DNA of 64,000 nucleotides from Lytechinus variegatus (taxonomy: Eukaryota), in NCBI RefSeq assembly GCF_018143015.1, contig NC_054743.1:35403243-35467242 (forward strand), read 5' to 3'. This document shows, piece after piece, positions 16,418 to 60,135 of the stretch. The stretch's first letter is position 1; each line of letters opens with the position of its first letter. The notes under the pieces are model-generated. The model was not told where the DNA came from, made no database searches, and saw only the letters and a list, made by a program, of their open reading frames with translations. A program made the position numbers and the translations under genes.

Positions 16418-17208
16418 TAAAGGGGAAGTTCACCCTGAGAAAAGGTTTATTACAAAAATAGCAAGAAAATAATAACAAATACTGGCGAAGGTTTGAGAAG
16501 AAATCAATCACAGAATACAACAAAATTAATTAAAATGCTGATTATTTGATCTGTGACGTCATATGCGAACAGTTTTCTTAAATATCGTATGGTAAGAAAT
16601 CAATGAAATGTCTTTTTCTCACACAAATGACAATAATTTAGATTGTATCTTTAGAATATCAATACACAACTGATTTCACATCCGCTACTAAAAAGAAAAT
16701 TTAAAAAAAAGTCGTCACCAACCATTAAAAAGGGTAACATTTATGCATTTCATATTGCATACCGTATCTTCTGTGTATGTTCGCGGTTGTATGTTGTGGT
16801 ACTCCTTTTTGTGTTGGTGTGGGTTGAGATAGTGATGACCATGAATGTCCACGGCATGGGATAATAAGAAACGATTCTCTTTAATAATATACTTCTGATA
16901 ATGAGTCTTACTTTAGAGTACTTTAGTGTACTAGATCTAGCTTTAATCGATATTAATTTGACCCGTCAGATCGGGGTCTAGTAATCAACAAACAAGTTAA
17001 AATTTGCCTAAATTTAGAAGACTGGATAAACCGCTGTTTCGGAGAAGTTTGTAAAAAAAATATTTTCTGATCTTATGACGTCAAAAATCAAAAACTTGAA
17101 ATCCTAATAACTTTTAAAACCTTTAAATCACCATTATTTTCATATAATTTTTTCTGCTATTTTTACAACAAGGTTTTTGTCAGGGTGAACCTCCATTAAA
17201 AGGAAATT
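16418..17208. mobile_element. TTAA-flanked MITE, AGGGGAAGTTCACCCTG TIR family (carries TGACGTCA)
   Basis: ttaa|aggggaagttcaccctgag ... cagggtgaacctccat|taaa. Internal tgtgacgtcatatgcgaacag and tatgacgtcaaaaatc. Related copies at 36428-36900 and 38524-38935. Confidence 0.65.
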
Positions 17209-17214
17209 CCATCC

Positions 17215-17455
17215 CGACAATAGTAGATTAGGATGAATGGAAAAAATCAATAGTATATACGCTGAAAATTCATCAAAATCGGAAGTGAAAGCGGAAATTT
17301 CACTACATTTTTCCAAAAACATCTATATGCACATCCGGGTCGGTATGCAAAATGAGGGAGTGATGACGTCACCAACAGTAAGATTTCAGTCAGGTATACC
17401 ATACAGTCAAAGAGAGAAAGAGGGATGTCTATCAACTGAAGGGAGTACTTGAGAA
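17215..17455. mobile_element. Half copy of the TGATGACGTCA foldback family
   Basis: ...tgaaaattcatcaaaatcggaagtgaaagcggaaatttcactacatttttccaaaaacatctatatgcacatccgggtcggtatgcaaaatgagggagtgatgacgtcaccaac matches one arm of 20812-21415. Confidence 0.55.
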
Positions 17456-17464
17456 GACGAGAAT

Positions 17465-17705
17465 GTACACAACAAAAACTGTGGTGTTAACCGGTGTACA
17501 TAGAGGACCACACCAGTTATTTTACACCGGTGTTAAATTGGTGGTGTTAGTTTTACACCTACAGGTGTTATTACAATACCTTTGGTTGTTACATTTACAC
17601 TCTTTGCTGTTATGTTCAATCTTTAGGGTGTAATTTTAACACCTCAAGGTGTGGTCCTCTATGAAAACCAATTTGTGTCAGTTTTAACACCATAGTTTTT
17701 CCAGT
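17465..17705. mobile_element. MITE, same family as 3036-3262
   Basis: acaaaaactgtggtgttaaccggtgtacatagaggaccacaccagttattttacaccggtgttaaattggtggtgttagttttacacc...ttaacaccatagtttttccagtg. Confidence 0.7.
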
Positions 17706-18675
17706 GTAACAGTTTTGCGGAATGGTTCTCATATTATAGAAGACAAATAAAAAATGAGAATTTAACAAAAAAGACTTGGGAAGAGACAAGATCGCATGGC
17801 AGATCGAAGGAGGGGGGGGGTTTTAAATGTAAAAAGAAAATAGAAAATTGAATTGAGGGTGTGGGTGAGTGTGTGGGTGGATGTTAGGAGTTTTACATCC
17901 CTGTAAAAAAATCGTTCCCATTGCAGTGCCCTGTCCGTTTGTTGGTTTTATTAACATCATAATCTGGAATTATGCCACGTACTATTTTCATTTTGCCGAG
18001 GAATGCCATAGAAACAGGCAGTCGTGTTAGAGTCTTTTTATTTACATCGATTGAAATGACATTGTCAAACAGACATCACGATAGTGAATCGATGGAGTAG
18101 ATCGCTTTGTTTGCATCATTAATTATACACGCCCGCTAATTACGCTCGCAGACGATCAAATTAAGTCCAATGTTTATGCATGTTAAAGGCATATTATGCC
18201 GAAATGATAATGTCCCACCTACATGTACCTACGCTTGGTGTACATGTATTCCTGTAAATCTTACATCGATTTTACATAATGATAATTAATTTACATTCAT
18301 ATTAATCACAGTTGAACAACATCAGCATAAGATCATATATTCGAAAAGCATTATAAATACTAGCGTGCAGGGCCGGCGTGCCATGGGGACCATGCCCCAT
18401 TGGCGGCAAAAGCAACGAAATTTAGGGGGAGGAAAAATATTTTCAACCAAATTTTTCCAGTCGGCTGCTAAAAGCTGACTTTTTAATATTTTTGTTTAGA
18501 GTGTAGTCCCCCTACTCAGTCTGAAGTTTTAAGTTCTTTTCTTTTTTATAAACAAGATAACATTCTATAAAGACAGGTGCGTATCGAGGATTTTGTACCC
18601 ACTTTAGGGCCCGAACTGAATATAATGCCCCTTTGTACTATTCGAAAAATGGCGCCCGTGGGCACCCCCCCAAAC

Positions 18676-19439: not shown

Positions 19440-19640
19440 CCTGTGTACAATAAAGGGGTTGTCACGTTTTAGCCGGTTTATGCCGACGTGCTTAATTTAT
19501 TTCTAACCTTCAAGATTTGTTATCCGATTTTGATGAAGCTTTTGGCATTTTGCTCAGTGAATTCTACTCTATTTATTAAGCTATAAATACTTTCAGCCCC
19601 GACCATCCCTAGAGCATATAGCATTTCCATTTATTTGAAA
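19440..19640 (+). repeat. Half copy of the AAAGGGATGGTCCAGGCTGAAA foldback family
   Basis: ...gatttgttatccgattttgatgaagcttttggcattttgctcagtgaattctactctatttattaagctataaatactttcagccccgaccatccct matches 60030-60130. Confidence 0.55.
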
Positions 19641-20415: not shown

Positions 20416-20811
20416 GTGTTGTGCATTTTGGCGAAAATCCCTATGCTATTGACTGTTTAGGAGGTCAGTTCCTCGCTCATGGCTTTAAAGTGCATAGATT
20501 TCAATCAAATTGAATCATTTGGGCGAACGGAAACGAGAAAATAGAAGATCGTATCTTGATGGAAAAGGGGACAAAAACTGACATTACAGCAAATTTCAAT
20601 CACACTACACAAGCAAGGTGATATCAGATTCAGAGGGTGAATATCTATAGAGGCATATAGCGCTGGGGGTAACGTGCGTGCCGAGATGGATTTAGCAAAA
20701 GGCACTAGCAAAATACAACAACAACAACAAATCAAATGTTACAATACTATTGAATATCTGACCAACAATTTGCCTGAGTACAACGCCATAATAAATAAAA
20801 ATGTTTTTAAA

Positions 20812-21415
20812 GGACAAGTCCACCCCAACAAGAAATTGATTTGAATAAACAGAGAAAAATCCAACAAGCATAACACTGAAAATTTCATAAAAATCGGATG
20901 TAAAATAAGAAAGTTATGACATTTCAAAGTTTCGCTTAATTTCACAAAAGGGTTATATATGCACATCCTGGTTGGTATGCAAATGAAGAGACTGATGACG
21001 TCATCCATTCACTATTTCTTTTGTATTTTATTATATGAAATATTCTAATTACCTCCTCATTGTCAAGTGAAACAACGATTAAATTATTCCTCCATGAACA
21101 CGTGGAATTACCATTGTTTAATACGGTTATATGGTTCAGTCAAGTTGGTCCTTAATGTCAAATCTATAAAAAATGAAATACTGTATAATTCAAACAATAA
21201 AAAAACAAAAGAAATGGTGAGTGATGGACATCATCGAATGACTCACCTAGTTTAATTGTGCATATCACTGTTTTGTGAAAAATAGGCGAAACTTTAAAAT
21301 GTCATAACTTTCTTTTTTACATCCGATTTTGATTAAGTTTTCAGCGTTATGCTAGTTTGATTTTTCTCTATTATTCAAATCAATATTTTTCTTGATCTTT
21401 AATAATGCAATTTGG
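20812..21415. mobile_element. Foldback element, TGATGACGTCATC family, TTAA-flanked
   Basis: Left arm ttaa|aggacaagtccaccccaacaagaaattgatttgaataaacagagaaaaatccaacaagcataacactgaaaatttcataaaaatcggatgtaaaataagaaagttatgacatttcaaagtttcgcttaatttcacaaaag...actgatgacgtcatcc. The right arm, aaagaaatggtgagtgatggacatcatcgaatg...ttttgtgaaaaataggcgaaactttaaaatgtcataactttc...gatttttctctattattcaaatcaat, is its reverse complement. Confidence 0.75.
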
Positions 21416-21810: not shown

Positions 21811-22063
21811 CACGACATGAATAATATCACAAATCATATCTAAATAACATTATTTATACATTCTGCTATAGCCCCTACACTGCCAAGCAGGCGTAAAATT
21901 GTATATAAGGAACATTAGTAGCGATCGTTTCCGATCTACTTTAGATTTAGAAAATCTCAGAGCGGGCGAGACGTGATGTAAACATACATTCGATAACTGA
22001 AATATTTCTCCACCTTAACACTGATTTCTGCTAAGTCAAGTTGCCTCAAAATGAGGCCAGCTA

Positions 22064-22228
22064 CACTGTAAAAAATGAAGTGCTAATTTAGCACTTAAAG
22101 TGCTTGTATAGTGACTGCACTATGAGTGTTAATTTTCTAGTTTCAATTTGAACTAGAAAATCAGCAGTAGTAGTGCAGTCCTATACAAGCACTGTTAGTG
22201 CTAAATTAGCACATCATTTTTTACAGTG
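22064..22228. mobile_element. MITE (CACTGTAAAAAATGAAGTGCTAATTTAGCACT TIR), TA-flanked
   Basis: ta|cactgtaaaaaatgaagtgctaatttagcacttaaagtgcttgtatag...ctatacaagcactgttagtgctaaattagcacatcattttttacagtg|ta. Confidence 0.8.
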
Positions 22229-22262
22229 TACACACAGTTAAAACGTTATTTGAAAATTTATA

Positions 22263-22494
22263 CACTGCAAAAACTGCGGTGTTAATTTAACACCAGTCGG
22301 CAATCTATATACATGACCACTCCAGAAGTGTTGAAACAACACCGGTTTGAAATTAAATCAATGGTGTTTTAACACTAATGGGTTTGCATAAGCGCCTATC
22401 TGGAATTAGTACAAAACCAAACCGGTATTGTGTTAACACTTCTCTGGTGTGGTCATGTATAGATTCCGGACTGGTGTTAAATTAACACCGCATT
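22263..22494. mobile_element. MITE, CACTGCAAAAACTGCGGTGTTAATTTAACACC family
   Basis: cactgcaaaaactgcggtgttaatttaacaccagtcgg...ccggactggtgttaaattaacaccgcattttttgcagtg. It lies 35 bp from the preceding MITE. Confidence 0.8.
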
Positions 22495-22837
22495 TTTTGC
22501 AGTGTTATAGTGCCCATACAACTCTATGAAACAGGAGTTGTTCAACAACTTAAACATCCATGCTCTTAATCTATTAAAGATTAAATATCATAACTTTAGG
22601 GTTTTTTAAAGATTTTTAACACTTGTTTAAACATTACTGACCAACAACAATTGAAAATTTTATATAACATTGCTGAAACCAGATTTAAATAAACCATGGC
22701 TATCAGAATTATCAGAATCCCACCCGATGGGAACACACCTGAGTTTTTGGTGTGTGTGTGTGTTTTTTTTTAACTCAATCTGCATTTTGATGATCTGACC
22801 GTGGCAAATAAGCTCACAAATGAGATGAACATATTGG

Positions 22838-24610: not shown

Positions 24611-25954
24611 TCCTGATATTTAATTTCAATTTTATTTCTGGTTTTTTTTGGCAACATTTTTCATAAACAAAATCGAGACAAGAAAATGCTTATAAAAAAT
24701 CTGACATCAAGATAATGAGCAAATGATTTTGTATATAAATCATCAAATGTATCATACTTAAATAAACAATTTAAGTGGTATTAACTGATACACAATGAAT
24801 AAGATGGTTAAAAGGGTGGTCACAAAGCAATCTTGAAATTGTGACAACCCTTGAAAAGTGCTGTCACTTAGTGCCTTTTCACACGTGAATCTTGAATCAT
24901 CATTGTAATGATGATTGCTATTCGTCTTCAAAATCATCGGACCTTTCACACGGAAAATTCGTATCGTAATTTGAGTGAAACTTAACTGGAATTCCCCTCC
25001 GGAGAAGAACTTGAATTCGCGATTGTGATTAGTGTTCGTGATTCTCGTTTGGTTTCACACGTGCTAAGAATTCATCATTAACCTTATTTTTCACTGGAAT
25101 CATATCATTCAAATTATGATTATTTTACCGTGTGAAAGGGCGGCTGGTTTATGAACGAAATTTTTATTTAAAAAATTATGAATATATAGACGAAGCGGAC
25201 CCACTGGGCGAGCATTAGACAGAATGATCATTAGACTAAATGGATATTATTAGACCAAGTGAAGTGTAGACTAAACGACAATTAGACCAAAGCGATAGTA
25301 GACTGCATGAAATTAGCCTAATGGTAATAGACTATGGTAGACCAACTTCAGTGTAACCCAAGTGAATATTAATCTTGAACCGCGTCGAATTTTCTCATCT
25401 GGATATTGGAATGGCTTTACTGTTGTTATCAACGACACCGCTGTAGGGAGGAGAGGAACGGATTTAAAGGGGGGGAGGCTTGTCAGATAGAAAATCAAAA
25501 TAAGATGGCAATATGTACGTTTTTGCAGATATGTAGGATAGGAGGCGATGATTGATTGCATTTATTCTTTTCATTCCAAAATTTAACAAAAGTTACAATG
25601 TAAAGCATAACACAAAAATATCATATACAGAAATGAAAAAAAGGAACCCACTGGAAAGCAAAGCTTGTTAGTATCGGTTAGTATCGGTTCCCTACATAAA
25701 TAAATAGTTAAAGTATATCTTTGATCAATGAAATTCAATTCGTAAATTAAAAAGGTTTGTACAATGAAAAAGAATACCAGTGGGGTCAAGCTTTTTATGT
25801 TTACTCACTAAGTTACAATTAACAGAAAAAATGTTATATCGTGCCCCTGCTGTATAAAAAAAACCTGAGTTCTGGAGTGTGTGAACAGACAATCACTTGG
25901 TCAAGAGAGGACGAAAACTAAAAACAAAACAAAGACAATAACAAAAACGGCACA

Positions 25955-26090
25955 CACACAAACAAAAACAAAACAGAACAGGACAAGACAGCAAAAAAGG
26001 AAAAGAAACAAAATGGCAAACACACACACAAACAAAAACAAAACAGAACAGGACAAGACAGCAAAAAAAAGGAAAAGAAACAAAACACAC
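25955..26090. repeat. Tandem duplication (~67 bp x 2) within an A/AC-rich low-complexity block (25880-26230)
   Basis: acacacacaaacaaaaacaaaacagaacaggacaagacagcaaaaaa(aa)ggaaaagaaacaaaa occurs twice. The overlapping ORFs here are low-complexity artefacts. Confidence 0.8.
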
Positions 26091-30229: not shown

Positions 30230-30545
30230 ACCTCTCTCCCTCTCCCACACACATCCACTCTCTCCCTCTCTCACACACACACACACACAACCTCTCACAT
30301 ATTCACTCCCTCTCTCTCTCACACACACACACACACTCTCACACATCCACTCTCTCTCTCTCACACACACACAAACACATCCTCTCTCTCTCTTACACAC
30401 ACACACACACATCCACTCTCTCTCTTACACACACACACACACACATCCACTCTCTCTCTCTCTCACACACACACACATCCTCTCATACATCCACTCTCAC
30501 ACACACACACACACATCCTCTCACATATCCACTCTCTCACCCTCC
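30230..30545. repeat. Compound microsatellite (CT)n(CA)n
   Basis: ctctctctcacacacacacaca...atccactctctctctc repeated. The ORFs 30047-30412 and 30060-30590 are low-complexity artefacts. Confidence 0.9.
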
Positions 30546-32100: not shown

Positions 32101-33519
32101 CTTTATCATGAATCCGGATGAAACATGGAATTTCACAGAAGCATTGACTGAAGTCTTTTTTTGGTTTGGACATAGAATTGGCAAAACTTGTGAACCTAGT
32201 ATCAAACATACCCTCAGTGTATGCAGCCAAGCCACTCGTAGAAAAACAAGTGTTTTTGTTTGCTTTTACGTGCTACATATTTTTTTTCAGTGACTTCAAA
32301 CATAACATTTCCTTTCATGAAAGCACGGATTGAAGCCCTTCTCCTAGTTTACTCTGAATTTAGTATTAGCAGAACTCATGTGAACAGTACTGAATATGAC
32401 AATAATAAAATCGAAATGGCTGATCTCTATTTAAAGGGGAATGAAACCCTTGGAACAAGTTAGCTTGTGCGGAAACAGAAAATTCGAAGAATAAGATCAA
32501 AGAAATTTTGAGAAAAATTGAATAAATAATGAGAAAGTTGTGAGCGTTTGAATATTGCGGTAACTTATGCTGTGGAGATCCTTCGATTGGCAATGGGATA
32601 GAGATGCATGAGGTCACATGTGAACAACTTTCCCTTTGGTGGACTATAAAATATCCCCCAAAATGTCTCTTTTGCTCTTTCATATTGTTCAACAAACTCC
32701 TTCAACCATAACGTATTCTTTAAAAATCTTTATTACATGCCCTCCTATAGAAAGAATACAGATCTACTGATACATGTGATACAAGAGGCAGTTCAAGTAA
32801 AATATATACAAAAGTAATTGGAAAGTTGTTCACGTGTGACATCACACATCTTTGTCGCATTGCCAATTGGAGGATCTACATTACAATAATGATCTAAACT
32901 TGAATGCTCATAAATTTCTAATTATCTATTCACTTTTTTTCTCAAACTTAAGTTGATCTCTTTCTTTGATTTTTCTGTTTTCACACAGGCTATTGTGTTT
33001 CAAAGGTTTAATTTTCCTTTAAGTAACAAGATTTATTTGTGATGGTTCTCCAGTTCCTCATCAATGTTTCATTCATTACAAATATCTTTATTTAGTTATT
33101 ATTATCGCTGACATATATAGTAAAATATGATATGATAAATCTTCTCTATACAAACATAAAACTTGGAATACACACGGGGGAGGGGGAATGGCACTGCCTT
33201 TGAAAGATGTAACCCATTCTCATAAATAAAAGCACATACAAAATTTTGTTTTCATGTCGGGTGATGTACATGTGTCCAGTTTAAAGGGTAACAAAATTGC
33301 CACGGCAACAAGAGAGTATACTTTTCATCAGCCTTGTGCGCAGGGTAAGTGGAAATTGTATAGATTCCATCTTATCATGAAAATAGAATATTTGAAAGAT
33401 TACATGTATTCAGGGTTCAGGGGAAACATTACTAAATACACATGTACTCAATCTGAGCTCAAAGCAAAATTACTTGTCTAGGATCCTTTTCTGAGATGCA
33501 ATGTTAGATGATTGTCTAT

Positions 33520-34060
33520 AAGCATAGAAATAGCAGTGCCACCCCCCCTCCCTCCTTGAATTTTTCCGCGTACATTCGTAATCCCAAAGCTTCGTTATTC
33601 CGAAGGTTCGGATATTCCGAAGGTTCGGATATTCCTGAGGTTCGTATTTCCGAACGTTCGTAATTCCAAAGGTTCGTTAGTCTGAAAATGAAGTAGGGTT
33701 CGTAATGTCGAGGGTTCGTTAGTCCGAAAACGAAATGAGGTTCGTAATTCTGAAGGTTCGTTAGTCCGAAAACGAAAAGAGGTTCGTAATTCTGAAGGTT
33801 CATTAGTCTGAAAACGAAATGATGAACGAACTTTATTTCGTTTTAGGACTAGCGAACCTTCAGAACAACAAACCTTATTTCGCTTTAGAATTAACGAACC
33901 TCCGGAACAACGAACCTTATTTCGCTTTAGCATTAACGAACCTCCGGAACATCGAACCTTCGGAATAACACCACAAATGTTCGGATTGACGAACCCTTTT
34001 ACGTTTTTGGATTAACGAACATCGAGGTATAGGCAATTTACGTGTTTCGGAATTACGAAG
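33520..34060. mobile_element. Foldback element whose arms are tandem ~20-30-bp subrepeats (GGTTCGTAATTCCGAA units)
   Basis: Left arm 33590-33830 is tandem aggttcg(t/g)a(a/t)ttccgaa(a)(cgaaatg) units. Right arm 33830-34030 is the same units reverse-complemented (gaaccttatttcgctttagaattaacgaacctccggaac...). The centre lies near 33830. Confidence 0.7.
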
Positions 34061-36427: not shown

Positions 36428-36900
36428 ATTAAAGGGGAAGTTCACCCTGGCAAAGAGTTTACGGTAAAAATAGCAGAAAAAAATAATGTAATATTGCCAA
36501 AGATTTGAGCAAAATCCATCATAGTATAAGAAATTCACTCATTTGATTTGTGATGTCATACATGTACATGTATGCGAGCAGCTTTCCTGCCTATCTATGA
36601 AATGTCATTTTCTCGGAAAACTGAAAATTGTTTTTACTGTACCTTCAACATAAAAATAGACAAATCATTTCACACCCCTGCCTATAAAAAAAGCAAAAAT
36701 AAATCCTCACGAATCATTACAAAAATTAAAATAATGCATTTTATATTACATAACATATGGGGCAGCTGCTCATTTATGACGTCACAAAAATTTAAATTTC
36801 TAATAACTTTATTAATCTTTAATTAATTTTCCTCAAACCTTCACCACTATTTTTTCTGCTATTTTTACAATATTTTCTTCAGGGTGAACTTCCCCTTTAA
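36428..36900. mobile_element. TTAA-flanked MITE, AGGGGAAGTTCACCCTG family (intron 3 of ZC4H2-like gene)
   Basis: ttaa|aggggaagttcaccctggcaaagag...tttatgacgtcacaaaaat...cagggtgaacttcccct|ttaa. Confidence 0.7.
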
Positions 36901-36929: not shown

Positions 36930-37102
36930 TACTACTTACTCTGGATCAAGTCTCCGGTCTTCCTCTGTAAGCTCTGGGATACGATCTAGTCCTATCGACA
37001 TTCTCTGGGCGTTGATTTGTTCTTTGAGGCAAACGTATTCCTGGTACATCTTCCAAGCTGCCTCAAACGCCTTGTTCCTGTCTCCCTCTGTGTTCTTTAT
37101 CA
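36930..37102 (-). CDS. ZC4H2: ZC4H2-like protein, coding exon 3: IESVIKNTEGDRNKAFEAAWKMYQEYVCLKEQINAQRMSIGLDRIPELTEEDRRLDP(E)
   Basis: Acceptor ctcttttcactctccctttaag|ATTGAG and donor CCAGA|gtaagtag. Only one of the three frames is open across the 173 nt. Predicted coiled-coil composition, similar to the middle of vertebrate ZC4H2. Confidence 0.75.
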
Positions 37103-38422: not shown

Positions 38423-38523
38423 CTGGAAACCGAGGGATTATGGAAAAGAAAAATCATTATTCTTCCTCAATAGAAAATACCTCCATTTATCATACTATTC
38501 AGACTATGCAGTTTCTTAACCCC

Positions 38524-38935
38524 AGACTATCCTTAAAGGGGAAAGCTCAGTCTGTTGTAAAATTAGCAGACAAAATATTGGTGAAGGTTTGAAATATAAT
38601 CCATTAAATATTAAGAAAGTTATTAGAAATTCAAGTTTTTGATTTGTGACAACGTTAACGAGCAGCTGCTTCATATATATACACTATAGAATACATATTT
38701 CATTTTTTAATGTGATGACTTATTCTTAATCTTCTTTTTAGCAGCAAGTGTGAAATGATTTGGGTATCGATATACTGAATGTACAATAAAAACATTTTAA
38801 ATTGATTTTTTTACCATACGATACGTACGAAAGAAGCTTGCATATGACGTCACAAATCATATAATTAAAATTCTAACAACTTTTTTTTTATTTGTCAGCT
38901 TTTTGTCAGGTTGAACTTCCCTTTTAAATTCACAT
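38524..38935. mobile_element. TTAA-flanked MITE, AGGGGAA(A)G...CACC family (intron 1)
   Basis: ttaa|aggggaaagctcagtctg...tatgacgtcacaaatc...gtcaggttgaacttccctt|ttaa. Confidence 0.6.
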
Positions 38936-39221: not shown

Positions 39222-39865
39222 CTTAACGGGCAAGTCAACCCCAAGTTATCAAAATGTGGATTTGAATAAGAAAATGTAAAGAAAAACAATCAAACAAGCA
39301 TAACACTGGAAATTTTATCAGGTTATCAAATTTCAAAAATTTGCTACTTTTCAGAGAGCAGTTATAGGCACAATGGTGAAATGCAAATGAAAGAGCCACA
39401 AACTATTTAATTTGGTTTCCACTTAATAATAATAAATATTTCAATATTCTCCAATTTCACAATGAGGAACCAACTTCATAGAACCACAATAAAGTTGCAA
39501 CAATTGCAATCCAACATATCAAAGGAGGAATCAAAATCCGATATGTCACCTTATTTACTGGGTGCCATCCAGATATTGTGTACAGATTCAAACCTTGTTT
39601 CACATCATGATGAAAAAAAGAAGATTTTTTCATATCTCACATGACAAAATAGTGGGTGAGTGATATGATATTATCACTTCCCTCATTTGCATACCGATCA
39701 AGATGTGATTAACTGTTTTGTGAAATCGAGCAAAATTCTACAATGTCATAACTCTACATTCCACATCCAATATTGATGAAATTTTCAGGTTTATGTTGTT
39801 TGATTTTCCTCTTGTCATTCATTTATCAAACCAATTTTTTTGTTGGGGAGGACTTGTCGTTTGAA
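39222..39865. mobile_element. Foldback element, TGATGACGTCATC family (diverged copy)
   Basis: ttaa|cgggcaagtcaaccccaagttatcaaaatgtggatttgaataagaaaatgtaaag...ggtgaaatgcaaatgaaagag on the left. The right arm is ...catttgcataccgatcaagatgtgattaactgttttgtgaaatcgagcaaaattctacaatgtcataactc...gttggggaggacttgtcg. Confidence 0.65.
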
Positions 39866-40474: not shown

Positions 40475-42097
40475 AGTTAAAATCTGTCATTGCTTTGATA
40501 GATAGTCTGGGCCCTGGGGTAATTGGTTTTAAAATGCTTAACAATCAAAGAAATAAATATTGAATATTTAGCAGAATCAATAAATGAAAATATCGTGTGA
40601 AATACATGAGCAGTATCTTTCGTCGGTATGCACATGTATGTCATGTAAGCATTTTTATACATACTTTTGCATTTTTGTACAATGATCATTGATTTGATTT
40701 TAATACAATAGATGGAAATCAAACCAAAGTACAAATTTGATTAAGATTTTGATTGTGGAAATTCAATAAATTCATTCATTCATTCATTCTTAGAATTCAT
40801 TCATTCATTCAAATATTGAGGTAAAACAGATATGTAAAAGGAAAGATCCACTCCTTTTAATAGCAATATTCTTTTACAATTTTGAAAGGACTATTGAAAG
40901 GACTATGATTAATTACCATCAAGTGCATTTTATAAGTATGTTACCTGTTAGAATAAGAAAAAAATTATTTTGTATTGTAGCCTACAATGCCCCAATGGAT
41001 CTAACAAAACAATAATAGCAGGCTTGTATCTCTTGTATCAGAAATGTGAAATTTATTGTTTTTACAATAAGCAAATGCCAGGGGAAAGGGGTCTCAAATT
41101 ACAAAACAGAAGATGTTGAGTAGTGTAAGACAATATTTTTCTCTCTTATTATTTCAATTTTGTTCAGTAATCTTTTCTAAATGACCATTTGAAAATAAAT
41201 CAAAATGTAGTACATGTATTACTCCATTTTAAAGAATTATGGATGAACACAAAAACTTTGAATCTTTACACTGGCTGTTGTAATTCTATGGACTACAATT
41301 ATGGAAAAGTCCATAATTCAATTTTTTTAAAAATGAATATTAAAAAAAGAATTAAATTTTACAGTTGAACAATTTCTTAATCTCATTTAAAGTTTGCAAA
41401 AATGTAAATAAATGTAAAAAAAAAATACACAAATACACATCCAGTCAAGAAACTGGCTCATTAAAGCCTGAAGTTTTAGCAACTCCCCAGCAAAATGTCT
41501 GTCACTATTCCATTGATTAGTCAATGATGAAAAATTATTTCATTGTACACTGTAATAAATGTATGCGCTTTGGGCCTCATGGGAAATGCGCCGTATATTA
41601 ATATGAACATGGAGGTATACCCTACAAGTATGATGTGGAGGACACTTGTTTAAAAATGGATGTAATTAGATAATTATGAAGTTTACATTCATTGGGGGTG
41701 GTTTTGTGCCCTATAAAAATAAAATATCTGCACATTTTGTTCTCTCTCTCTTTTGATGTAAAAATCAATTCCTGTAGCATGTGGAAATTTCAGGATATTT
41801 CCTGCTATGTCATCATCAAAATTACTTTAAAAAAACAAGTAATCAAAATGCCATTTTTAAAGAAAAAAAAACTAAATCAACCAAGAGAGTGAGCTAGAAA
41901 AAAAGGAAGAAACATTCAACAAAGAAATTAACAGATTAACAAAATTAAGGGTAATACACTATTGTATGATTGCATGCAATTCATGTTATTGACCCACTAT
42001 AGTCTACATCACTGAAGTTTTTAGAGAGACTTTAAAAAAAGACTTTTAAAATAGAATATGTATAATACTAAATAGGTTCATTATTGCGGATTGAAAT

Positions 42098-42315
42098 AAT
42101 CGCTAGAGGGTATTCATTTGTCTCGCAATCTACTATGGTCAACAAGGAAATTCGTGATCACTCTTGCAAAGCTCGTGAACTTGTAAGCTAGTGAACACTT
42201 TTTGCGAGAGTGATCACGAATTTCCTAGAAAGCCAGTGAACACTTTTTGCGAGAGTGATCACGAATTTCCTTGTTGACCATAGTAGATTGCGAGACAAAT
42301 GAATACCCTCTAGCG
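42098..42315. mobile_element. MITE with ~65-bp TIRs and an internal tandem duplication
   Basis: aatcgctagagggtattcatttgtctcgcaatctactatggtcaacaaggaaattcgtgatcactct...(cactttttgcgagagtgatcacgaatttcc x2)...ttgttgaccatagtagattgcgagacaaatgaataccctctagcgatt. Confidence 0.75.
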
Positions 42316-43529
42316 ATTAAGAATATGTATGTACGCAAAGTGTGAATCAAAACATTAAAAATAAAACATAATACATATTATTACCTACATGTATACAAGG
42401 CATTTTAGCAGATAAATAAATGTCATATTTCCCTTGCTACTTTTCAATTCAAGACCAACAGGGTTAACAAGTGCCATGTTGCTCTTTCCAGGAAACATCA
42501 CTTGCCCTTTAATAAAAGAACCATATTGCCCTCGTCTAAGACTCGGGCCATTATCATTCTGTTGCGGGCAACAGTAAAAAAAAAAACACTGCACGTAAAG
42601 GCCAGTCACATATGCTTAAATTTCAAAATACATGTGATAAAAACAAGTTTCACAAATGGACTTTCATGAAAAATCATCCATGAATTATCATGTTTCAGAT
42701 CTATGCAAGTGATTACAAAATAAATGATAACAAAATATATACAATTATAAAAAGATGGGCTGCAAGTATGGAAGTTGAAATAAAAGCACTTTGTTTTGTG
42801 AATTAAAAGTCATTTATTTTCATTTCCTTTCTGTCAGATTAATTTTACCAAAACATTTTAAAGCTAACAGAATATTTTATCAAACAATGGTCCTTCTCCT
42901 TGGTTTTCTTTTCACATTTGGTAGTGAACATTTTCTTTTCTTACAATAACCCGAATACAAAAGGCATTGTTGCGATCCGCCAGACCAAACAAATTACATG
43001 TATAATAGATAGTGGGCATTATTTGTATATGTAAAAGTGTCTTTGATAATAACAACCAATTACTCGAGTGTTGACCGAATAATGCTTGAAAAGGGACAGT
43101 ATGCATCCAAGTCTCTGCTGTTTTTGCACGAAGAACAAACATCAGTCACTCGATTAAATTCAAATAAGGAATCATTCATATGACAGTATTTTATTTCAGT
43201 ATTCTATACAGCATTTTAAACCCCTCAAAAAAAGTTTTGCAACTCATTTTTGGGGGATGATATCTTTTTGGTTAATGAAGTATAAAAGATGAAACTGGTA
43301 TCATTGGAAAGCTGAATTATTCTTCTTTACAATGACATGCCATTTGCTGTGATTATGTAATCATGGAATATGCAATCACCCTGAACATCGAGAAAAGTCA
43401 GAAGTGAAATGTTGCAAAATGCATTGATTTCCAAAAAGAGTCTCCATTTCTATAGAATTTCCACCATGCAGGTGACAGTGAATGCACTCGGTCCATCCTC
43501 GAAACAATTGGAAATTCGCTATTGCAAAC

Positions 43530-43925
43530 GACGCATTTTGCAACATTTCATGTCTAACATTGCTGTGTATTATCATGTCTGTGTATTTCATGATAACACT
43601 AGCATTACAAATGACACATGATTGTAAAGAAGAATAATCATGCTTTCTAAAGATATCACTTTTACACATGATGATGGCACATTAAGAAATTTATTAGCAC
43701 TCAAACTTGCAGTTTGAGTTGCAGAACTCAAACATGACATGGCAACGAATTTTGCAACATTTCATTTTTTACATTGCTGCATATTTATCATGTCTGTGTA
43801 TTTCATGATAACACTAGCATTACGAATGACACATGATCGTAAAGAGAAATAATCATACTTTCCAATGATACCACTTTTACATATGATGATGGCACACTAA
43901 GAAATTTATTAGCACTCAAACTTGT
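43530..43925. repeat. Tandem duplication, ~220-bp unit x 2
   Basis: ttgcaacatttcat.t.taacattgctg.at.ttatcatgtctgtgtatttcatgataacactagcattac.aatgacacatgat.gtaaaga.aataatcat.ctttc.aa.gata.cacttttaca.atgatgatggcaca.taagaaatttattagcactcaaacttg occurs twice, with ~90% identity. Confidence 0.75.
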
Positions 43926-44678
43926 GTTGCGGAACTTATTTTGAGGGGTTTATATTGAAACCATCTCGTACTTTCAATCCATAGTTGACCGAACATGAAT
44001 CAGAAAATATGAAAACCATGGGATATTCTTTCTTTGAATTATACTCTCTGTTTCCATTCGATGGGGCTGTAACATTGTTTCACTTTATTTTTTCAGAAAC
44101 ACACTTTAAATATGAGAACATCCTTACTTCATTTCATGAATTAAAAGTAATGCTCATGTATGGTAATGCTCATGTATGATGGATGTAAGCTGTTCGATTC
44201 ATGACATTGGATTCTAAAGGTATTAGACTGCTCTTCCAACTTTGGTATAGCATTATAGTTTGAATAGCTCTGCATGTATATCCCACAATATTGAAGGAAA
44301 TTAATCTTTTATATTAAAATGTTGAAATTCAAAATCTGAGAGGAATATAGCATCTTCAAGGAAAATGTTGTTGACAAAACATATACATGTAGCTTTCATA
44401 CACCGTCCCTTTTATACGAAAAATTGTATCATTTTTTCACTTTCATTTTGAGATCATTCTAGGCTGATAATGTGCAATATCAAAATTAACAACAGTTATT
44501 GAAACCAACTTTGAAAAATAAATAATTGGGGAATGATTACACAATAAGCAGTTGTTAGCATTCCGTTTCATTCAAAATGTTTTTCTTTCTTTCGAAGATT
44601 TGGGGTAAATAAAAATCTCATCTTGACTCCAAATTTATTGACGATAATATACTCTCAAAGCTGTTGAAAGTCACTTAC

Positions 44679-46861: not shown

Positions 46862-47478
46862 TTAAAGTACAAGTCCATCTTGCCAACAAAAAAAGTTGAT
46901 TTGAATGAAAAGGGAAAAACCAAGCAAGCATAGCACAGAAAGTTTCATCATGAAATGGGATGTAAAATAAGAAAGTTATGACATTTCAAAATTTTGTTGA
47001 ATTTCACTAAACAGTTATATTCACAGAGGCCTACTGGTCGGTATGCAAATATCAAAGGGGACTGATGAAATCGCCAACTCTCTATTTCTGTTGCATTTTC
47101 TAACATGAAATATGAAATATTTTAATGTTTTCATTGTCATGTGAAATAAAGGCTTATTCCTCCCCTGAACATGTAGAATCACCACTGTTTGTTTTATGGT
47201 TCAGTCAGGTAGGTCCTTATTGTGAAATCTGTAGAAATTGAAATATTGTATACTAGTAAATCAAACAGTAAAAAAAAAAGAAATGGTGAGGGACATCATC
47301 GACTCTCTCACTGAGTTGTGCAAATAGTAACTGTTTTGTCAAAAAGGGGGATTTAAAATGTCATATAACTGTCTTATTTTACATCCAACTTTGATGAAAT
47401 TTTCAGTGTTTTGCTTGCTTGATTTTTCTCTAATGATTCAAATCAGCATTCTTCTTGGGTGGACTTGACCTTTAAAGA
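46862..47478. mobile_element. Foldback element, TGATGACGTCATC family, TTAA-flanked
   Basis: ttaa|agtacaagtccatcttgccaac...ggtcggtatgcaaatatcaaaggggactgatgaaatcgcc on the left. The right arm is ...gagggacatcatcgactctctcactgag...gggtggacttgacct|ttaa. Confidence 0.75.
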
Positions 47479-53929: not shown

Positions 53930-54137
53930 CAGGGGGGTGTTTCACAAAGATTTAAGTATGACTTAGAGTCGCACTTAAATGCTGAGTTGCGTACGGTATG
54001 AAATGCTTGACCGCATTGGTCAGATCGTGCCATGAGGACGCGCACTACTGCGTATTGATCAATAAGATCGCGCGTTGCATATCATGTAAGCGTCGGCATT
54101 TAAGTGCGACTTAAGTCATACTTAAATCTTTGTGAAA
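53930..54137. mobile_element. MITE (~50-bp TIR GGGGGTGTTTCACAAAGATTTAAGTATGACTTAAGTCGCACTTAAATGC)
   Basis: gggggtgtttcacaaagatttaagtatgacttagagtcgcacttaaatgc is the inverted complement of gcatttaagtgcgacttaagtcatacttaaatctttgtgaaacaccccc. Confidence 0.8.
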
Positions 54138-54600
54138 CACCCCCCAGTTCATATTTTACAGTGTACATTCAAAATAAGTTCAATTTAATTATTTGATGTT
54201 GATACATGCATGCTTTGGGTAAGGAACTTTCTTCTGAATTTACACGTTTCGCAAGTAAACGCAAACCAAAGAAATCTTTAATCAGTGTTTGTGACTTTGT
54301 CTTCCCTCGTTTTGAAAAGCCGAGAAGTGGAGCTGCTGGACTATTACTAATATTATTAATTAGTCAGAATTAAGTTCATGACTAAACTCATACAAGGCCA
54401 GAGCATTGGATGCCCTATTGGTAGATCTTAAATTAGCCTTGGATAATGTTTGCCCCTTTTCATTTTTCCCATTTGTGCAATAATTCAAAAATGTGTCCTA
54501 TAGAAAAATGGCCTTGCCCACGAAATATTGAAGTTTATAAGGACCTGCCAGGTGGTTCAAATGTCAATGATATCACACTTTTCTTTAATATCATTTCATA

Positions 54601-54976: not shown

Positions 54977-57817
54977 TATTAGAGAAAGATCAACCTCCAT
55001 GTATTAAAAATAAGGGACTTTTCCCAATTCTGACTATAGACTGTTGCGTTGTCATTACTGTGTATCGTCTGTTGTTTTTGGTGGAAAATTTTGTACAGAG
55101 GCTTTACCGATTCCTACAGAATCCAAGCATTATCCCGCCTGAAAAATTGTGTCACGGTTGAGGCGGGATGGCAGGCTTGGTCTCCAGAGGGCGGGGGATA
55201 CAATCCAATTTTCTTAATCTCTATCTACCCATGGCCACTCCCAAAGGGGACCGTGGCAAAATGGCATACTGGATGCCGACGGCGAAAGTGCAGTCTTAAG
55301 TTGCTCTTTTCTCTCTCACTCCTTGTCAAGTGGTGGGAGTACTTGCGACTGAAGAGACATAGTAGAGATGATGTTAAATGGAGAGGAGATGATGCCCTAT
55401 AATCGAAAAGAAATAATTGCCTCACCACTCCTATTACATCCTCCCGACGATCTAGCATTGAGCAGAGGAGAAACGGAAAACCATCCCTGCCAGATCGTGT
55501 TCAACTCCCGGACCCTTACTTGTTTGGTTATTCAAAAGGCATTCTGCGGTGTTGATGCTCTTGCTCGGAGAGCCATTTATTTCTTCCTGCGAGCGGGCAA
55601 GACAACTCTACGAGGGAGTAATTTAAGACATTTGCACAGAAATGCCAGATAATTAACATCTTGATTGAAAATGTGTATCTGGGGAAGGCGAGATGTTATC
55701 TTGTTGATGGCGGAACGATTTCATTTGCGCTGTGTTGTTCCTTGTCGGTTTGTGTGGTTCTGGCAGGCCATTAGATCTTAATGCCATCGGCAAGAATACA
55801 ATGGGCAAGCAAGTGAACTATTCCATCAAACGGTCTCTGTTTGTCCAAAAACGGTGCAAAGAAATGTCCCAAGGGAACGATCATATGCAAAATAGAAGAG
55901 ATAAAAGAAAGGGTTTCCTGAGAAGGACATAAAGAAGAGAGCTACCTCTCTTGATGGATGGGTCTCATTTGCCAGTAAAAATGAAAAATATCAAATATAC
56001 ATCTTAGAGACTTGAAGGGAGAGAAGATTTGGTTAAAGACCAGAACAAAGAGAATAAGGGGAAAAGAAGAGTTACTTGTGGCCGGGAAGTGTCGGTCGTT
56101 TGCATCTGGGTTAACAGGATCTGTAAGACTATGCGTAAGAAGTTAATTTCTTCCTCGGGCAAAGCGGATTTGGAAAACAAGACTTTGGTTTGATGCGCCG
56201 AACCTGACACTAAAGAGACAAGCAGCGACAGCGTTTCGAGGTGGATCTTAAGAGCTCGCTAGAGAGGACAGGTAACAAGACAAAAGCAAAGGAAAAAAGT
56301 TTTGATCAGCGAAAAGGCGAAAATGGTGAAAACACAAGAGTTTACTTGGAGAAGAAAAAGTTTAAACATTCAGGAGTGAAGAACGTGGCAGAATGAGGTC
56401 ACACAGAAATAGGGATAGGCCATCTCATTTTTGAGGAAATTTGGGAAGAATAAATATCACTCAACAAAATATCAACAAAAACAGAAAGGCATGGAGAAGT
56501 GTCGATGCCTCGGTGGGATCCCTCTTTTTGATCTAGGAAGCTCATGAGGGGCAGTATTCATTTTTTTTTTCACAACAAACAGAACTTGTTGCTTTTTGAC
56601 ATATTTGAAGACATGAAGAGTTCCTTTTTTTCAACACAAAACTAATACACCCATCAAAGTCAAGATGAAATAGTGTTTCATGATAGATCTACAAGTGCAC
56701 ACATATTATAAACGAACCAACAAATATTCAAATGAAAATGTGTTACAACAGAGATTTCAAAAATCAACCATGATTCTGCAGAACTTCCTTTGAAAACTCA
56801 ACTTTTCCTGCATTTCATTATATAGATCTATACCACCTTTTTTGAGGAAGGAAAAGAAATTATGCCATTCAAGGAACTGCAGTATGGAGGTCTCTTTCAA
56901 CTTTTATAATGGATTTGAATCCAAAGCAGCTAGGTATTAGATCACTGCAGTAATTGGTGTACAGGACACAGGCTCGTTGCTGCACTATCACAAACGACAA
57001 CAAAACTTTCTGCAGAAACGGCCTTCGAAACTCACTCTTTCTCAGCATTTCATGTTTGCATTTTAAAACATTCATTCATTGGGATGTCAACTCTTGGAAA
57101 AGGTTTAACTGCTCTGCTACTGTACATGAAGAAATCATTGCAAGCACTTTCTATTATTTTTTCTCTCTCTATATAGCATCTGGATTAAAAAATGATTTTT
57201 TTTTAAAATCTGCTTCAATACCCAGCCCATAAAAAAAGGAGTTTTGATTGTTTTAAACATCCCACATAATATTCCAGAAAAAAATATTACCAGCAAGAAA
57301 GTACGTAAGAAAAAATAGATTTGCACTATATATTTTTTTGCATAATTTTAATATACATTTTTGTAATACCAATATGTTAGTACAATTAGTACAACTCATC
57401 TTACAAAAAACAGAACAATTTCAGCTAAACAATGAGATAGCATCTCCTCCTTCCCCCTTCTCATTACTTTACAATTAATTTTGTAATTGAATTGAATCGA
57501 CCCCTTTGATAATCATAATTATCATCTCTTGTACTGTATTTATATCGTTTCCCTGTATAATGCATGTTTAGAACATATAACCTGGGCTTAATGTTGTAAT
57601 TGTTTTCCCTTTTTTATCAATAAAAGGTGATCTAGTTATATATATAAAAAGAAAATTACTTTTGCAGTGATTTCTCAAAGGTCATAGGGACATTTTATAC
57701 TGCACACAATATATGAAAGCAAGTTACAAGACCTTTTTTAGTGTGATTCAAAAAATATATTATTCATTTGCTTCTATATGAATGCAAGTCTTATAGCTGA
57801 CTCCTATATCTTAAAGG

Positions 57818-58432
57818 TCAAGTCCACCTCAGAAAAATGTTCATTTGAATAAATAGAGAAAAATCAAACAAGCATTATGCTGAAAATTTAATCAAAATCG
57901 AATGTAAAATAAGAAAGTTACAGTATGACATTTTAAAGTTTCGCTTATTTTTCACAAAACAGTGATATGCATAACTCAGTCACATGCAACTAATAAAGAC
58001 AGTCGATGATGTCCCTCACTCACTACTTTTTTTTAAAAATGTTTTTATTGAATTAAAAATTTTTTCATTTTTCACAGATTTGACAATAAGGACCAACTTG
58101 ATTGAACCATACATACATGTAGTATTAAACAATGCTGATTACACATGTTCAGGGAGGAATTAATCGTTATTTCACATGACAACAGGGAGAAAATTTGAAT
58201 ATTTCATACAATAAAATACAAAACAAATAGTGAGCAAGTGATGTCATCAGTCTCCTCATTTGCATACCGACAAGGATGTGAATATAACTGTTTTGTGAAA
58301 TTAAGCAAAAATTCAAAATGTCATAACTTTACTATTTGCATCCGATCTTCATGAAAATTTTAGTGGTATGCTTGTTGGATTTTTCTCTATTCATTTAAAT
58401 TGACTCTTTGTTAGGTCAGACTTGTCCTTTTT
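57818..58432. mobile_element. Foldback element, TGATGACGTCATC family (CG motif decayed to TGATGTCATCA), TTAA-flanked
   Basis: ttaa|aggtcaagtccacctcagaaaaatgttcatttgaataaatagagaaaaatcaaacaagcat on the left. The right arm is ...gagcaagtgatgtcatcagtctcctcatttgcataccgacaaggatgtg...gatttttctctattcatttaaattgactctttgttaggtcagacttgtcc. Confidence 0.75.
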
Positions 58433-59129
58433 AAGCTGGTTTAGGCTGGTGTGAACACTAATTGAATCAAGGGTGCCAGTCAGGAACTGAGCCTGAAATA
58501 AAATAAGAAAGAACACATAATGGATAAGGCCTGTAAAAGGTCTCAAATTGATCTAGTTGAACTTGTCAGGGCCTGAAATCAGGTACATAACACAAAAACT
58601 TGTATCTTAGCTGAAAACAGAAATTTCTATAAGGCAGGTGTGAAAGCGTCTACTGTGAATGATGATAATTTGCCTCAGAATGCAAGTAATAAGAGATAAC
58701 GCGGGATACTTCTGTGCAAATACATGTATGTATTTAACAAGTGATGAAAAGTGCAAGACTTGTTGCAAAATAATCACTGTATATACCAGCTGTTCAAATT
58801 GACAAATAGGGGAAGTGTAAAGAGCTTGTATATGGAAAAAGGAAAAAGATCATAGAAATCAAATCGTGCTGAAAAATTGAAGAAGAGGTTGAGCCAAAGA
58901 GAAAAATAAGAGACAGAGATAGACAGTGAGAGAGAGGCCGACAGACAGAAAGACAGAGTCAGAGAGTGAGAAAAAGAGAAGTGAAGAGAGAGCGCTGGCG
59001 AACTCTGCTGTATAAATAATGATTAATTCGCTAATATTACACTTTCATTAATTCCAATCAATATTTAGTGCCCTATCAAACACTTTGCGCATATGGTTGA
59101 AGACTAATTCCCATGTTCACTATCTTAAA

Positions 59130-59520
59130 GTGATTGGTTAACATTGGTTTCACTTTTAAAAAATCTGAGCTAGAAGGTCACATTTGTCATCTGTGTCTAG
59201 GATATGTTACAAAAATGAAGCCCAGAAAAAATTGCGTTAAAAAATAATCATTTAGTGCTTCAAAAATTGAAATATAAAGTGACCGGAAACACCATCTTAA
59301 TTTCCTCCCATACACTTATGTGTACTATTTAGGCGTCTATAAGACGCCTATTTACAAAATCGGGGTTTGCCTTGTAGTTTTAGCTTTTCATTCTCAATAA
59401 TTGTTGTTTTCAGGGTTTATTAGTTCTAATACATGCACTGGTACACATGTTTCATCTTGGTTTGAGAATTTTTTAAATCGGCTGCTCACAAAGTTAAACA
59501 ATACCTATTATAAAGCATTT
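59130..59520 (+). repeat. Dispersed repeat (partner of 11560-11890, opposite orientation)
   Basis: ...gtctataagacgcctatttacaaaatcggggtttgccttgtagttttagcttttcattctcaataattgttgttttcagggtttattagttctaatacatgcactggtacacatgtttcatcttggtttgagaattttttaaatc... is the reverse complement of 11560-11700. Confidence 0.65.
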
Positions 59521-59544
59521 GGAACACTTTTCAGTGTTTAAAGG

Positions 59545-60135
59545 GATGGTCCAGGCTGAAAATATTTATATCTTAATACATACAGTAGAATGCACAGAGC
59601 GAAATGCCGAAAATTTCATCAAAATTGAATAACAAATAATAAAGTTATTGAAGTTTAAAGTTTAGCAATATTTTGTGAAAACAGTCGTAATGAATAGTCA
59701 TTAGGTGGGCTGATGATGTCATATCCCCACTTTCCGTTTTCTTATGTTATTACTTAAAATCATATTTTTTTCATTATTTAATACTTGTGTGAATAATATG
59801 TCTCCCTTATAATGAAATAAGTTGCAGTAATAAATATCTAAATATGCAATAAAACAGTTGTCAATCCAATTTTTCTAGTTTTGGAGGAGAAAAATTTGAA
59901 TAAACCTAATTTCACATAATAAAATACAAAAGAACAAGTAGGGATGTGACATCATTAGCCAACCTAATGAATATTCATAACGACTGTTTTCACAAAATAT
60001 TGCTAAACTTTGAAATTCAATAACTTTGTTATTTTTTGTTATCCAATTTTGATGAAATTTTCAGCATTTTGCTCAGTGAATTCTAAGTCATTTATTTAGC
60101 TATAAATACTTTCAGCCTGGACCATCCCTTTAATA
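59545..60135. mobile_element. Foldback element, AAAGGGATGGTCCAGGCTGAAA family, TTAA-flanked
   Basis: ttaa|agggatggtccaggctgaaaatatttat...ggtgggctgatgatgtcatatcccc on the left. The right arm is ...gggatgtgacatcattagccaacctaatg...tttcagcctggaccatccct|ttaa. Confidence 0.75.

What the first reader, a model, noticed from the sequence alone, without database searches (positions are those of the whole stretch)
16418..60135. Several distinct MITE and foldback families share TTAA flanks and 5'-AGG...CACC termini
At least three families sit between TTAA tetranucleotides at both ends in multiple copies. They are the AGGGGAAGTTCACCCTG MITEs (16418, 36428, 38524), the AGG(A/T)CAAGTCCACCCC foldbacks (20812, 46862, 57818, 39222), and the AGGGATGGTCCAGGCTG foldbacks (59545). 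This implies mobilisation by a TTAA-targeting transposase, piggyBac-like or Kolobok-like. The shared 5'-AGG..AAGT.CACC terminal pattern suggests one transposase source cross-mobilising several non-autonomous families. No transposase ORF is in the window.
Basis: partly seen in the sequence, partly recalled or inferred. Interest (0 to 1): 0.6.

Follow-up and report, generated by a model that had tools for sequence, protein, structure and literature searches.

The report
Kolobok-type MITEs in a sea urchin
This stretch of sea urchin (Lytechinus) DNA holds about fourteen old, non-coding copies of small cut-and-paste transposons. Their TTAA flanks and AGG...CCT ends mark them as passengers of a Kolobok-type transposase, which is a known kind of element and an ordinary finding.

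Summary
Short inverted-repeat elements start with AGG, end with CCT and sit between TTAA tetranucleotides. When termini are found by their core sequence alone, 12 of 18 carry an exact TTAA flank against 0.16 expected (P = 4e-21). None of 34 flanks of 17 other MITEs in the window carries one.

I count four families:
- A: about 464 bp.
- B: about 600 bp.
- C: 588 bp.

Together they make about 14 copies or fragments and about 9% of the window.

They are best read as non-autonomous Kolobok elements of the Kol0/T2-MITE type. Published Kolobok hallmarks are a TTAA duplication with 5'-RR...YY-3' ends. T2-MITEs start with AGGRR. piggyBac ends start with CCC or CAC.

The family B tip AGGACAAGTCCACCCC matches 14 of 16 bases (15 of 16 in one copy) of the tip of transposase-encoding Xenopus XKol-A3 (AGGACATGTCAACCCC).

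B, C and probably D are related beyond the tip. A shares only the tip. Copies are 68-87% identical, so they are old.

The window holds no transposase. I could not find an echinoderm Kol0 transposase with these tools. The idea of one transposase moving all families is untested. This is a new member of a known kind, of low interest.

The parts
16421..17197 (+). Family A copy 1 (777 bp). TTAA lies at 16417-16420. The right end is degraded and abuts a B fragment through a single TTAA-like tetranucleotide.
   Evidence: (nhmmer E = 9.5e-127).
36433..36896 (+). Family A copy 2 (464 bp). Both tips are a perfect AGGGGAAGTTCACCCTG, with TTAA on both sides.
   Evidence: DNA fold z = -8.1.
38537..38923 (-). 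Family A copy 3 (387 bp), with TTAA on both sides (38533-38536 and 38924-38927).
   Evidence: E = 2.8e-101.
12282..12298 (+). Orphan A-like terminus, TTAA|AGGGAAATATCACCCTG. No partner end was found.
20811..21398 (+). Family B copy 1, with TTAA on both sides. The right tip has lost 10 bp internally.
   Evidence: E = 4.6e-169.
46866..47471 (+). Family B copy 2, with TTAA on both sides. The left tip has mutated to AGTACAAGTCC.
57815..58428 (-). Family B copy 3. TTAA lies at the 57815 side. At the other side the TTAA is displaced by two extra T.
   Evidence: E = 1.2e-171.
39227..39860 (-). Family B copy 4, with mutated tips (CGG... and ...CGT). The flanks are TTAA and TTGA.
   Evidence: E = 8.3e-140.
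60181..61222 (+). Fifth B-like copy. Its left half (60181-60447) and right end (61093-61222) are separated by a nested, unrelated repeat. TTAA lies at 60177-60180. The right flank is TGCA followed by TTAA.
11956..12063 (+). 108-bp internally deleted B miniature. Its left tip AGGACATGTCCACCCC matches 15 of 16 bases of Xenopus XKol-A3. The flanks are TTAA and TTTT.
17200..17380 (+). Family B 5' fragment that directly abuts A copy 1. Only 7 nt (ATTAAAA) separate the two recognisable tips, which leaves room for one TTAA and not two.
59542..60129 (+). Family C complete copy (588 bp). The arms are 87-90% complementary, the tips are perfect, and TTAA lies on both sides.
19506..19610 (.). Family C terminal fragment. 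Its flank is AGAG on the + strand, the only terminus with no TTAA-like flank.
32435..33018 (+). The tips are AGGGGAATGAAACCC and AGGAAAATTAAACC, with TTAA on both sides and arms of about 208 nt at 74.5% identity.

Best explanation
These are non-autonomous, MITE-type derivatives of Kolobok-superfamily DNA transposons of the Kol0/T2-MITE type, in a Lytechinus genome.

Inferred mechanism, from what is established for this superfamily:
- A Kolobok DDE transposase encoded elsewhere in the genome, or now extinct, recognised the roughly 16-20 bp tips.
- It cut the element out and inserted it into a TTAA site, which was duplicated on both sides.

Families B, C and probably D descend from a common long-inverted-repeat ancestor. 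Family A shares only the tip. All copies in the window are old relics.

Shown here: the ends, the flanks, how the copies relate to each other, and the absence of any coding capacity.

Inferred: the identity of the transposase, and that the TTAA is a true duplication.
For: 1. TTAA flanks are specific to these families. Twelve of 18 termini found by core pattern alone carry one, against 0.16 expected (P = 4e-21). After full curation, 17 of 23 termini are exact. None of 34 flanks of 17 other MITE families in the window carries one.
2. Every terminus reads 5'-AG...CT-3'. Kolobok is defined by TTAA duplications with 5'-RR...YY-3' ends, 'unlike piggyBac' (PMC9587614). T2-MITEs are defined by a TTAA target and an AGGRR terminus (PMC6004289).
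3. Transposase-encoding Xenopus XKol-A3 elements end in AGGACATGTCAACCCC next to TTAA. Family B has AGGACAAGTCCACCCC (14 of 16), and copy 11956 has AGGACATGTCCACCCC (15 of 16).
4. No further direct repeat lies outside the TTAA.
5. A copy 1 and a B fragment abut with room for only one TTAA between their tips. That is what insertion into a pre-existing flanking TTAA would produce.
6. The elements do not code. The window holds no transposase domain and no Kolobok core similarity.
7. B and C are homologous beyond the tip (z about 15), as are C and D (z = 5.9) and B and D (z = 3.6) (alignment).
Against: - No empty site was available, so the duplication of TTAA is inferred and not seen.
- No autonomous partner was found. 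A Kol0 profile search gave 276 hits, and a search with a hemichordate Kol0 protein gave 68. Neither listed a named echinoderm protein.
- A 2022 review-style list of Kolobok hosts omits echinoderms apart from the KolobokP lineage.
- Family B tips read AGGAC or AGGTC, which departs from AGGRR at the fifth base. XKol-A3 does the same.
- One C fragment has an unrelated flank.
Confidence: 0.85

Rival explanations
1. They are piggyBac-derived MITEs, moved by one of the piggyBac transposases present in Lytechinus.
For: The flanks are TTAA. piggyBac elements with TTAA duplications are reported from L. variegatus and L. pictus (PMC10813416).
Against: piggyBac inverted repeats begin CCC or CAC (CACTA, CCCTC, CCCTT, CCCAT). 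All termini here begin AGG. No TTAA-flanked inverted pair of the CCC type occurs in the window. The family B tip matches a Kolobok element at 14-15 of 16 bases.
Confidence: 0.04
2. They are solo long terminal direct repeats (LTDRs) of KolobokP, the only Kolobok lineage reported from Lytechinus, or they are cross-mobilised by its transposase.
For: KolobokP-1_LyPi exists in L. pictus, and solo LTDRs behave as non-autonomous transposons. LTDR lengths cluster near 450 and 660 bp. Family A is 464 bp and family B is 588-634 bp.
Against: The published LyPi LTDR begins GGGTGCACGCGCG. Neither that tip nor the whole LTDR has any significant match in the window. LTDRs have only 11-18 bp inverted repeats, whereas B and C are palindromic along their whole length. 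The family B tip matches the Kol0-type XKol-A3.
Confidence: 0.06
3. TTAA is the outermost part of the inverted repeat and not a target duplication. On this reading the true duplication would be TA, as for a Tc1/mariner-like element, or there would be none.
For: TTAA is a palindrome, so flanks alone cannot separate a repeat end from a duplication. No empty site was examined.
Against: Two abutting elements share a single TTAA. If TTAA belonged to each element, two would be present. The TA-flanked MITEs of the same window start with CACTG-type tips and lack the outer T...A. The literature documents TTAA as the duplication for elements with these tips.
Confidence: 0.04
4. One single transposase source mobilised all four families. 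This is the first reader's cross-mobilisation idea, treated here as a sub-hypothesis of the Kolobok reading.
For: The tips share AGG and a G-T-(T/C)-C-A core. A and B agree at 12 of 16 positions, A and D at 12 of 16, and B and C at 9 of 16.
Against: Xenopus has at least six transposase subfamilies, each with its own AGG/AGA-type tip, so shared AGG is a lineage trait. C (AGGGATGGTCCAGGC) and D (AGGGGAATGAAACCC) differ substantially from B. Nothing in the window bears on the timing of activity.
Confidence: 0.3

Closest known systems
Xenopus T2-MITE family and its autonomous XKol (Kolobok, Kol0 lineage) elements, especially subfamily A3 (Hikosaka et al. 2018, PMC6004289)
   Same: TTAA flanks, an AGG(R)(R) terminus, short non-coding multi-copy elements with inverted repeats, and several subfamilies with different tips. 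The XKol-A3 tip AGGACATGTCAACCCC matches family B at 14-15 of 16 bases.
   Different: The host phylum is Echinodermata, not Amphibia. There is no sequence relationship beyond the tip. No autonomous partner has been identified. The copies here are old, whereas some Xenopus subfamilies were active recently.
KolobokP of Lytechinus pictus and other invertebrates (Kojima and Bao 2022, PMC9587614)
   Same: The same superfamily and the same genus. RR/YY ends. Solo units of about 450 or 660 bp that act as non-autonomous transposons.
   Different: The LTDR tip is GGGTGC... and the LTDR sequence is unrelated to anything in the window. Its inverted repeats are short. Its architecture is a composite of direct repeats.
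piggyBac-derived MITEs
   Same: A TTAA target duplication.
   Different: Their tips begin CCC or CAC and end GGG or GTG (PMC10813416). Here the ends are AGG...CCT.
Sea urchin TU and Drosophila FB foldback transposons (recalled from memory, not checked here)
   Same: Long inverted arms that fold back. TU elements are found in sea urchins.
   Different: As I recall them, those elements have arms built of short tandem subrepeats and duplications of 8-9 bp. The arms here are unique sequence with TTAA flanks.

Membership tests
Kolobok superfamily (non-autonomous member) | TTAA on both sides of the element (TTAA-specific 4-bp target duplication) | tested here: met
   17 of 23 curated termini have an exact TTAA and 5 more lie within 1-2 changes or a short offset. 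For termini found by core pattern alone the count is 12 of 18 against 0.16 expected, P = 4e-21.
Kolobok superfamily (non-autonomous member) | The TTAA is really duplicated on insertion, so that an empty site holds a single TTAA | not testable with these tools
   No other sea urchin DNA could be reached, and the window holds no paralogous empty site. The only indirect support is one shared TTAA between two abutting elements.
Kolobok superfamily (non-autonomous member) | Termini 5'-RR ... YY-3' | tested here: met
   All families read 5'-AG...CT-3'.
Kolobok superfamily (non-autonomous member) | An autonomous relative in the same genome with matching tips that encodes a Kolobok DDE transposase | tested here: inconclusive
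   None lies in the window. Protein searches listed no named echinoderm Kol0 homologue, but transposases are often left unannotated and the genome itself could not be searched.
T2-MITE family (Kol0-associated) | Terminal AGGRR motif next to the TTAA | tested here: met
   A has AGGGG, C has AGGGA, and D has AGGGG and AGGAA. B has AGGAC or AGGTC, where the fifth base is C, exactly as in autonomous XKol-A3 and XKol-A4.
T2-MITE family (Kol0-associated) | Short, non-coding, multi-copy, with terminal inverted repeats | tested here: met
   The elements are 108-777 bp. A has 3 copies, B has 5 full copies plus 2 partial ones, C has 1 full copy plus 1 fragment, and D has 1 copy. They contain no ORFs with protein-family matches.
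piggyBac-derived MITE | Inverted repeats that begin 5'-CCC or CAC | tested here: not met
   All tips begin AGG. The TTAA-pair scan found no CCC-type pair. The criterion comes from PMC10813416.
KolobokP solo LTDR | Sequence identity to a KolobokP LTDR of the genus, and only short (11-18 bp) inverted repeats | tested here: not met
   The KolobokP-1_LyPi LTDR has no significant match in the window. B and C are palindromic along their whole length. Only the published L. pictus LTDR could be compared.

The most novel reading that the evidence does not exclude
Echinoids carry, or once carried, a Kol0/T2-lineage Kolobok transposon. No such element turned up for echinoderms in the literature and protein data I could search, where only KolobokP is recorded. 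Its 16-bp transposase-binding tip would then have stayed almost unchanged between echinoderms and amphibians (14-15 of 16 bases), through very deep conservation or through horizontal transfer. Its MITE progeny would account for a sizeable share of the large 'unknown class II' fraction of sea urchin genomes. That fraction is 18% in Anthocidaris (PMC11316814), and these elements make up about 9% of this window.
Probability: 0.35. Interest if true: 0.4.

Novelty: new member of a known kind. Interest (0 to 1): 0.25.

Why it matters
The main value is for annotation. These families can be labelled Kolobok (T2-like) instead of 'unknown DNA transposon', in a genus used as a developmental model. Such elements may explain part of the large unclassified class II fraction reported for sea urchin genomes.

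The near-identity of the 16-bp tip with a transposase-encoding Xenopus element is a small but concrete lead. It bears on how strongly Kolobok transposases constrain their binding sites, and on whether a Kol0-type autonomous element exists or existed in echinoderms.

Nothing here points to a new mechanism.

Tried and rejected
1. Orthologous locus for an empty-site test. Exact-protein look-ups of the window's GPCR and of its L. pictus homologue found no contig.
2. Metagenome scan for AGGACAAGTCCACCCC. It returned 120 matches, and none of them has a TTAA flank; they read as chance hits, mostly in GC-rich contigs.
3. A Kolobok transposase query taken from the Xenopus paper's supplement. The machine-read CDS alignment was too corrupted by frameshifts to translate.
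4. Kol0 cores taken from the supplement of PMC9587614. They worked as queries, but a profile search and a search with a Ptychodera homologue listed no named echinoderm protein.
5. A Ptychodera locus encoding a Kol0-like protein. No terminal inverted repeats surround the gene, and the small inverted-repeat element nearby has TTA flanks with GGCC tips, which is Harbinger-like and not Kolobok.
6. KolobokP solo-LTDR idea. The published L. pictus LTDR has no match in the window.
7. Other TTAAAGG sites (for example 18187, 23296, 25468, 33285, 37118, 48414, 42508, 30878, 24135, 15845, 38339). None has a partner inverted repeat, so I treat them as chance. Site 38339 lies in a coding exon.
8. The AGG pair at 8942/9078. 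It is internal to another palindromic MITE and is not a terminus.
Full report
**Origin of the window.** The window is AT-rich (31-41% G+C) and packed with short inverted-repeat elements. Its one long intact ORF (4058-5167, minus strand) is a rhodopsin-type receptor, 97% identical to a Lytechinus pictus protein. The DNA is therefore from a Lytechinus sea urchin or a very close relative.

**Check of the observation.**
- The three terminal motifs occur where stated and far more often than chance. A has 6 hits against 0.05 expected, B has 9 against 0.39, and C has 3 against 0.08.
- Reading the junctions shows TTAA directly outside AGG... on the left and ...CCT on the right.
- For the 18 termini found by core pattern alone, with no flank in the pattern, 12 carry an exact TTAA. 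The background frequency of 0.0088 predicts 0.16, giving P = 4e-21.
- With family profile models the curated list has 23 termini. Seventeen have an exact TTAA. Five are one or two changes away or offset by a short insertion. One, at 19610, has an unrelated flank.
- As a control, 17 other inverted-repeat elements of the same window have no TTAA at any of their 34 ends. These include TA|CACTG-type families.
- A blind scan for TTAA pairs enclosing complementary 16-mers recovers only A and C as true terminal pairs. It finds no CCC-type pair.

**Inventory.**
- Family A: 16421-17197, 36433-36896 and 38537-38923, plus an orphan tip at 12282.
- Family B, full copies: 20811-21398, 46866-47471, 57815-58428 and 39227-39860.
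- Family B, other pieces: a 108-bp miniature at 11956-12063, a fragment at 17200-17380, and a fifth copy at 60181-61222. That fifth copy is split by a nested, unrelated repeat.
- Family C: 59542-60129, plus a fragment at 19506-19610.
- Together these cover about 6 kb, roughly 9% of the window.
- Copies within a family are 68-87% identical, so these are old insertions.

**Structure.**
- C folds as an almost complete hairpin, with dG -163 kcal/mol and z = -25.7.
- B copies show inverted self-similarity over their whole length.
- A and D have arms of about 140 and 208 nt.
- In A copy 2 the first 21 bases (TTAA plus 17) are identical at both ends, while the arms as a whole are only about 71% alike. 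This suggests the tip was the constrained part during the family's active life.

**Relationships between families.**
- An alignment of 14 ends suggested a shared layout, and shuffling tests qualify this.
- B and C are clearly homologous beyond the first 20 bases (z about 15).
- C and D (z = 5.9) and B and D (z = 3.6) are probably homologous.
- A is mostly not distinguishable from chance beyond the tip.
- The tips agree at 12 of 16 positions (A with B, A with D) or at 9 of 16 (B with C).

**What they are.** Two papers in the held library give the criteria.
[quoted passage not shown] - Table 5 of that second paper lists full-length, transposase-encoding Xenopus elements. Subfamily A3 ends in AGGACATGTCAACCCC next to TTAA.
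- Family B has AGGACAAGTCCACCCC (14 of 16), and the miniature at 11956 has AGGACATGTCCACCCC (15 of 16). My rough estimate is that such a match over the 24 family-by-subfamily comparisons has a chance probability near 2e-3.
- piggyBac is present in Lytechinus, but its inverted repeats start CCC or CAC (PMC10813416).
- The elements therefore meet the tested Kolobok/T2 criteria and fail the piggyBac criterion.

**Is TTAA a duplication or part of the repeat?** I could not obtain an empty site.
- No other sea urchin DNA was reachable.
- The metagenome scan returned matches with no TTAA flank, which I read as chance hits.
- The window holds no uninterrupted paralogue of an insertion site.
- Two indirect points favour a duplication. 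No further direct repeat lies outside the TTAA. Where A copy 1 meets a B fragment, only seven bases (ATTAAAA) separate the two recognisable tips, which leaves room for one TTAA and not two. That is the product expected when one element inserts into the TTAA flanking another.

**Source of the transposase.**
- The window has none. Pfam scans of all ORFs of 70 aa or more found only the receptor and two exons of a ZC4H2-like gene. tblastn with eight Kolobok catalytic cores gave nothing below E = 0.4.
- KolobokP is reported from L. pictus. However, its LTDR starts GGGTGCACGCGCG and has no significant match in the window.
- Searches of the large protein collection listed fish, molluscs, amphioxus and hemichordates but no named echinoderm. 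One used a Kol0 profile and one used a hemichordate Kol0 protein. This is weak negative evidence, because transposases are often unannotated.
- The partner may be unannotated, lost, or of another Kolobok lineage.
- The proposal that one transposase moved all four families cannot be judged from this window. The Xenopus precedent of one tip per transposase subfamily argues for caution.

**Verdict.** The cross-mobilisation idea remains open.

These are new members of a known kind of element, so the finding is ordinary. The only mildly surprising points are the near-identity of the tip with a Xenopus autonomous element and the lack of a documented Kol0-type Kolobok in echinoderms.

Noticed in passing
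window 4058-5167 (-): Intact intronless ORF of 369 aa for a rhodopsin-family GPCR (Pfam 7tm_1). It is 97% identical to L. pictus 'beta-3 adrenergic receptor-like', which identifies the source as Lytechinus.
   Followed up: partly
window 36939-37271 (-) and 38167-38466 (-): Two ORFs match Pfam zf-C4H2 and look like exons of a ZC4H2-like gene on the minus strand. Family A copies 2 and 3 and B copy 4 lie in or beside its introns, within 43-70 bp of these ORFs.
   Followed up: no
window 11564-11912 (+) and 59127-59506 (-): Two copies of another repeat, 86% identical, start with AGGTATTGTTTAACTTTGTGAGCAGC. One is preceded by TTAA and the other by ATAAT. No matching inverted repeat was found at the far end. 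Each lies about 40 bp from a B or C element. Its class is unknown.
   Followed up: partly
window 318-883 and about 60546-61073: A roughly 566-bp inverted-repeat element whose ends hold long C/G runs (GCAGCCCCCCGGGGGGGGGGG...). The second copy is nested inside the fifth B-like element.
   Followed up: partly
window 15886-16172, 22062-22230, 22262-22505, 9435-10091, 8905-9115, 6813-7038, 12521-12586: Several MITE families have (TA)CACTG, TACAGTG or GTACAC-type tips and no TTAA flanks. They are probably Tc1/mariner-like or similar. I used them only as controls.
   Followed up: no
window 1922-2244, 3686-3855, 53932-54145, 42097-42319, 43217-43952: Further unrelated inverted-repeat elements. Examples are CACACTGGCCCGTATTCTGAAG..., GGGGGGTGTTTCACAAAG... 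and TAATCGCTAGAGGG... with arms 99% alike, which suggests a young copy. The last element contains a 215-bp tandem duplication.
   Followed up: no
window 33575-33965: Arrays of 16/17-bp and 42-bp tandem units (TTCGTTATTCCGAAGG-type) are arranged as two blocks in inverted orientation.
   Followed up: no
window 30231-30538, 37740-37923, 13080-13178, 25951-26085, 61589-62004: Simple and low-complexity repeats: a CA/CT-rich compound microsatellite with strong negative GC skew, (GAT)n, (TAA)n, a 70-bp duplication and a 163-bp tandem repeat.
   Followed up: no
L121 4797-5076 (Ptychodera flava): A small inverted-repeat element with 34-nt perfect arms (GGCCAAAGTAATTAAATTC...) is flanked by TTA, which is Harbinger-like. 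It sits near a Kol0-like transposase gene that has no recognisable terminal repeats.
   Followed up: partly
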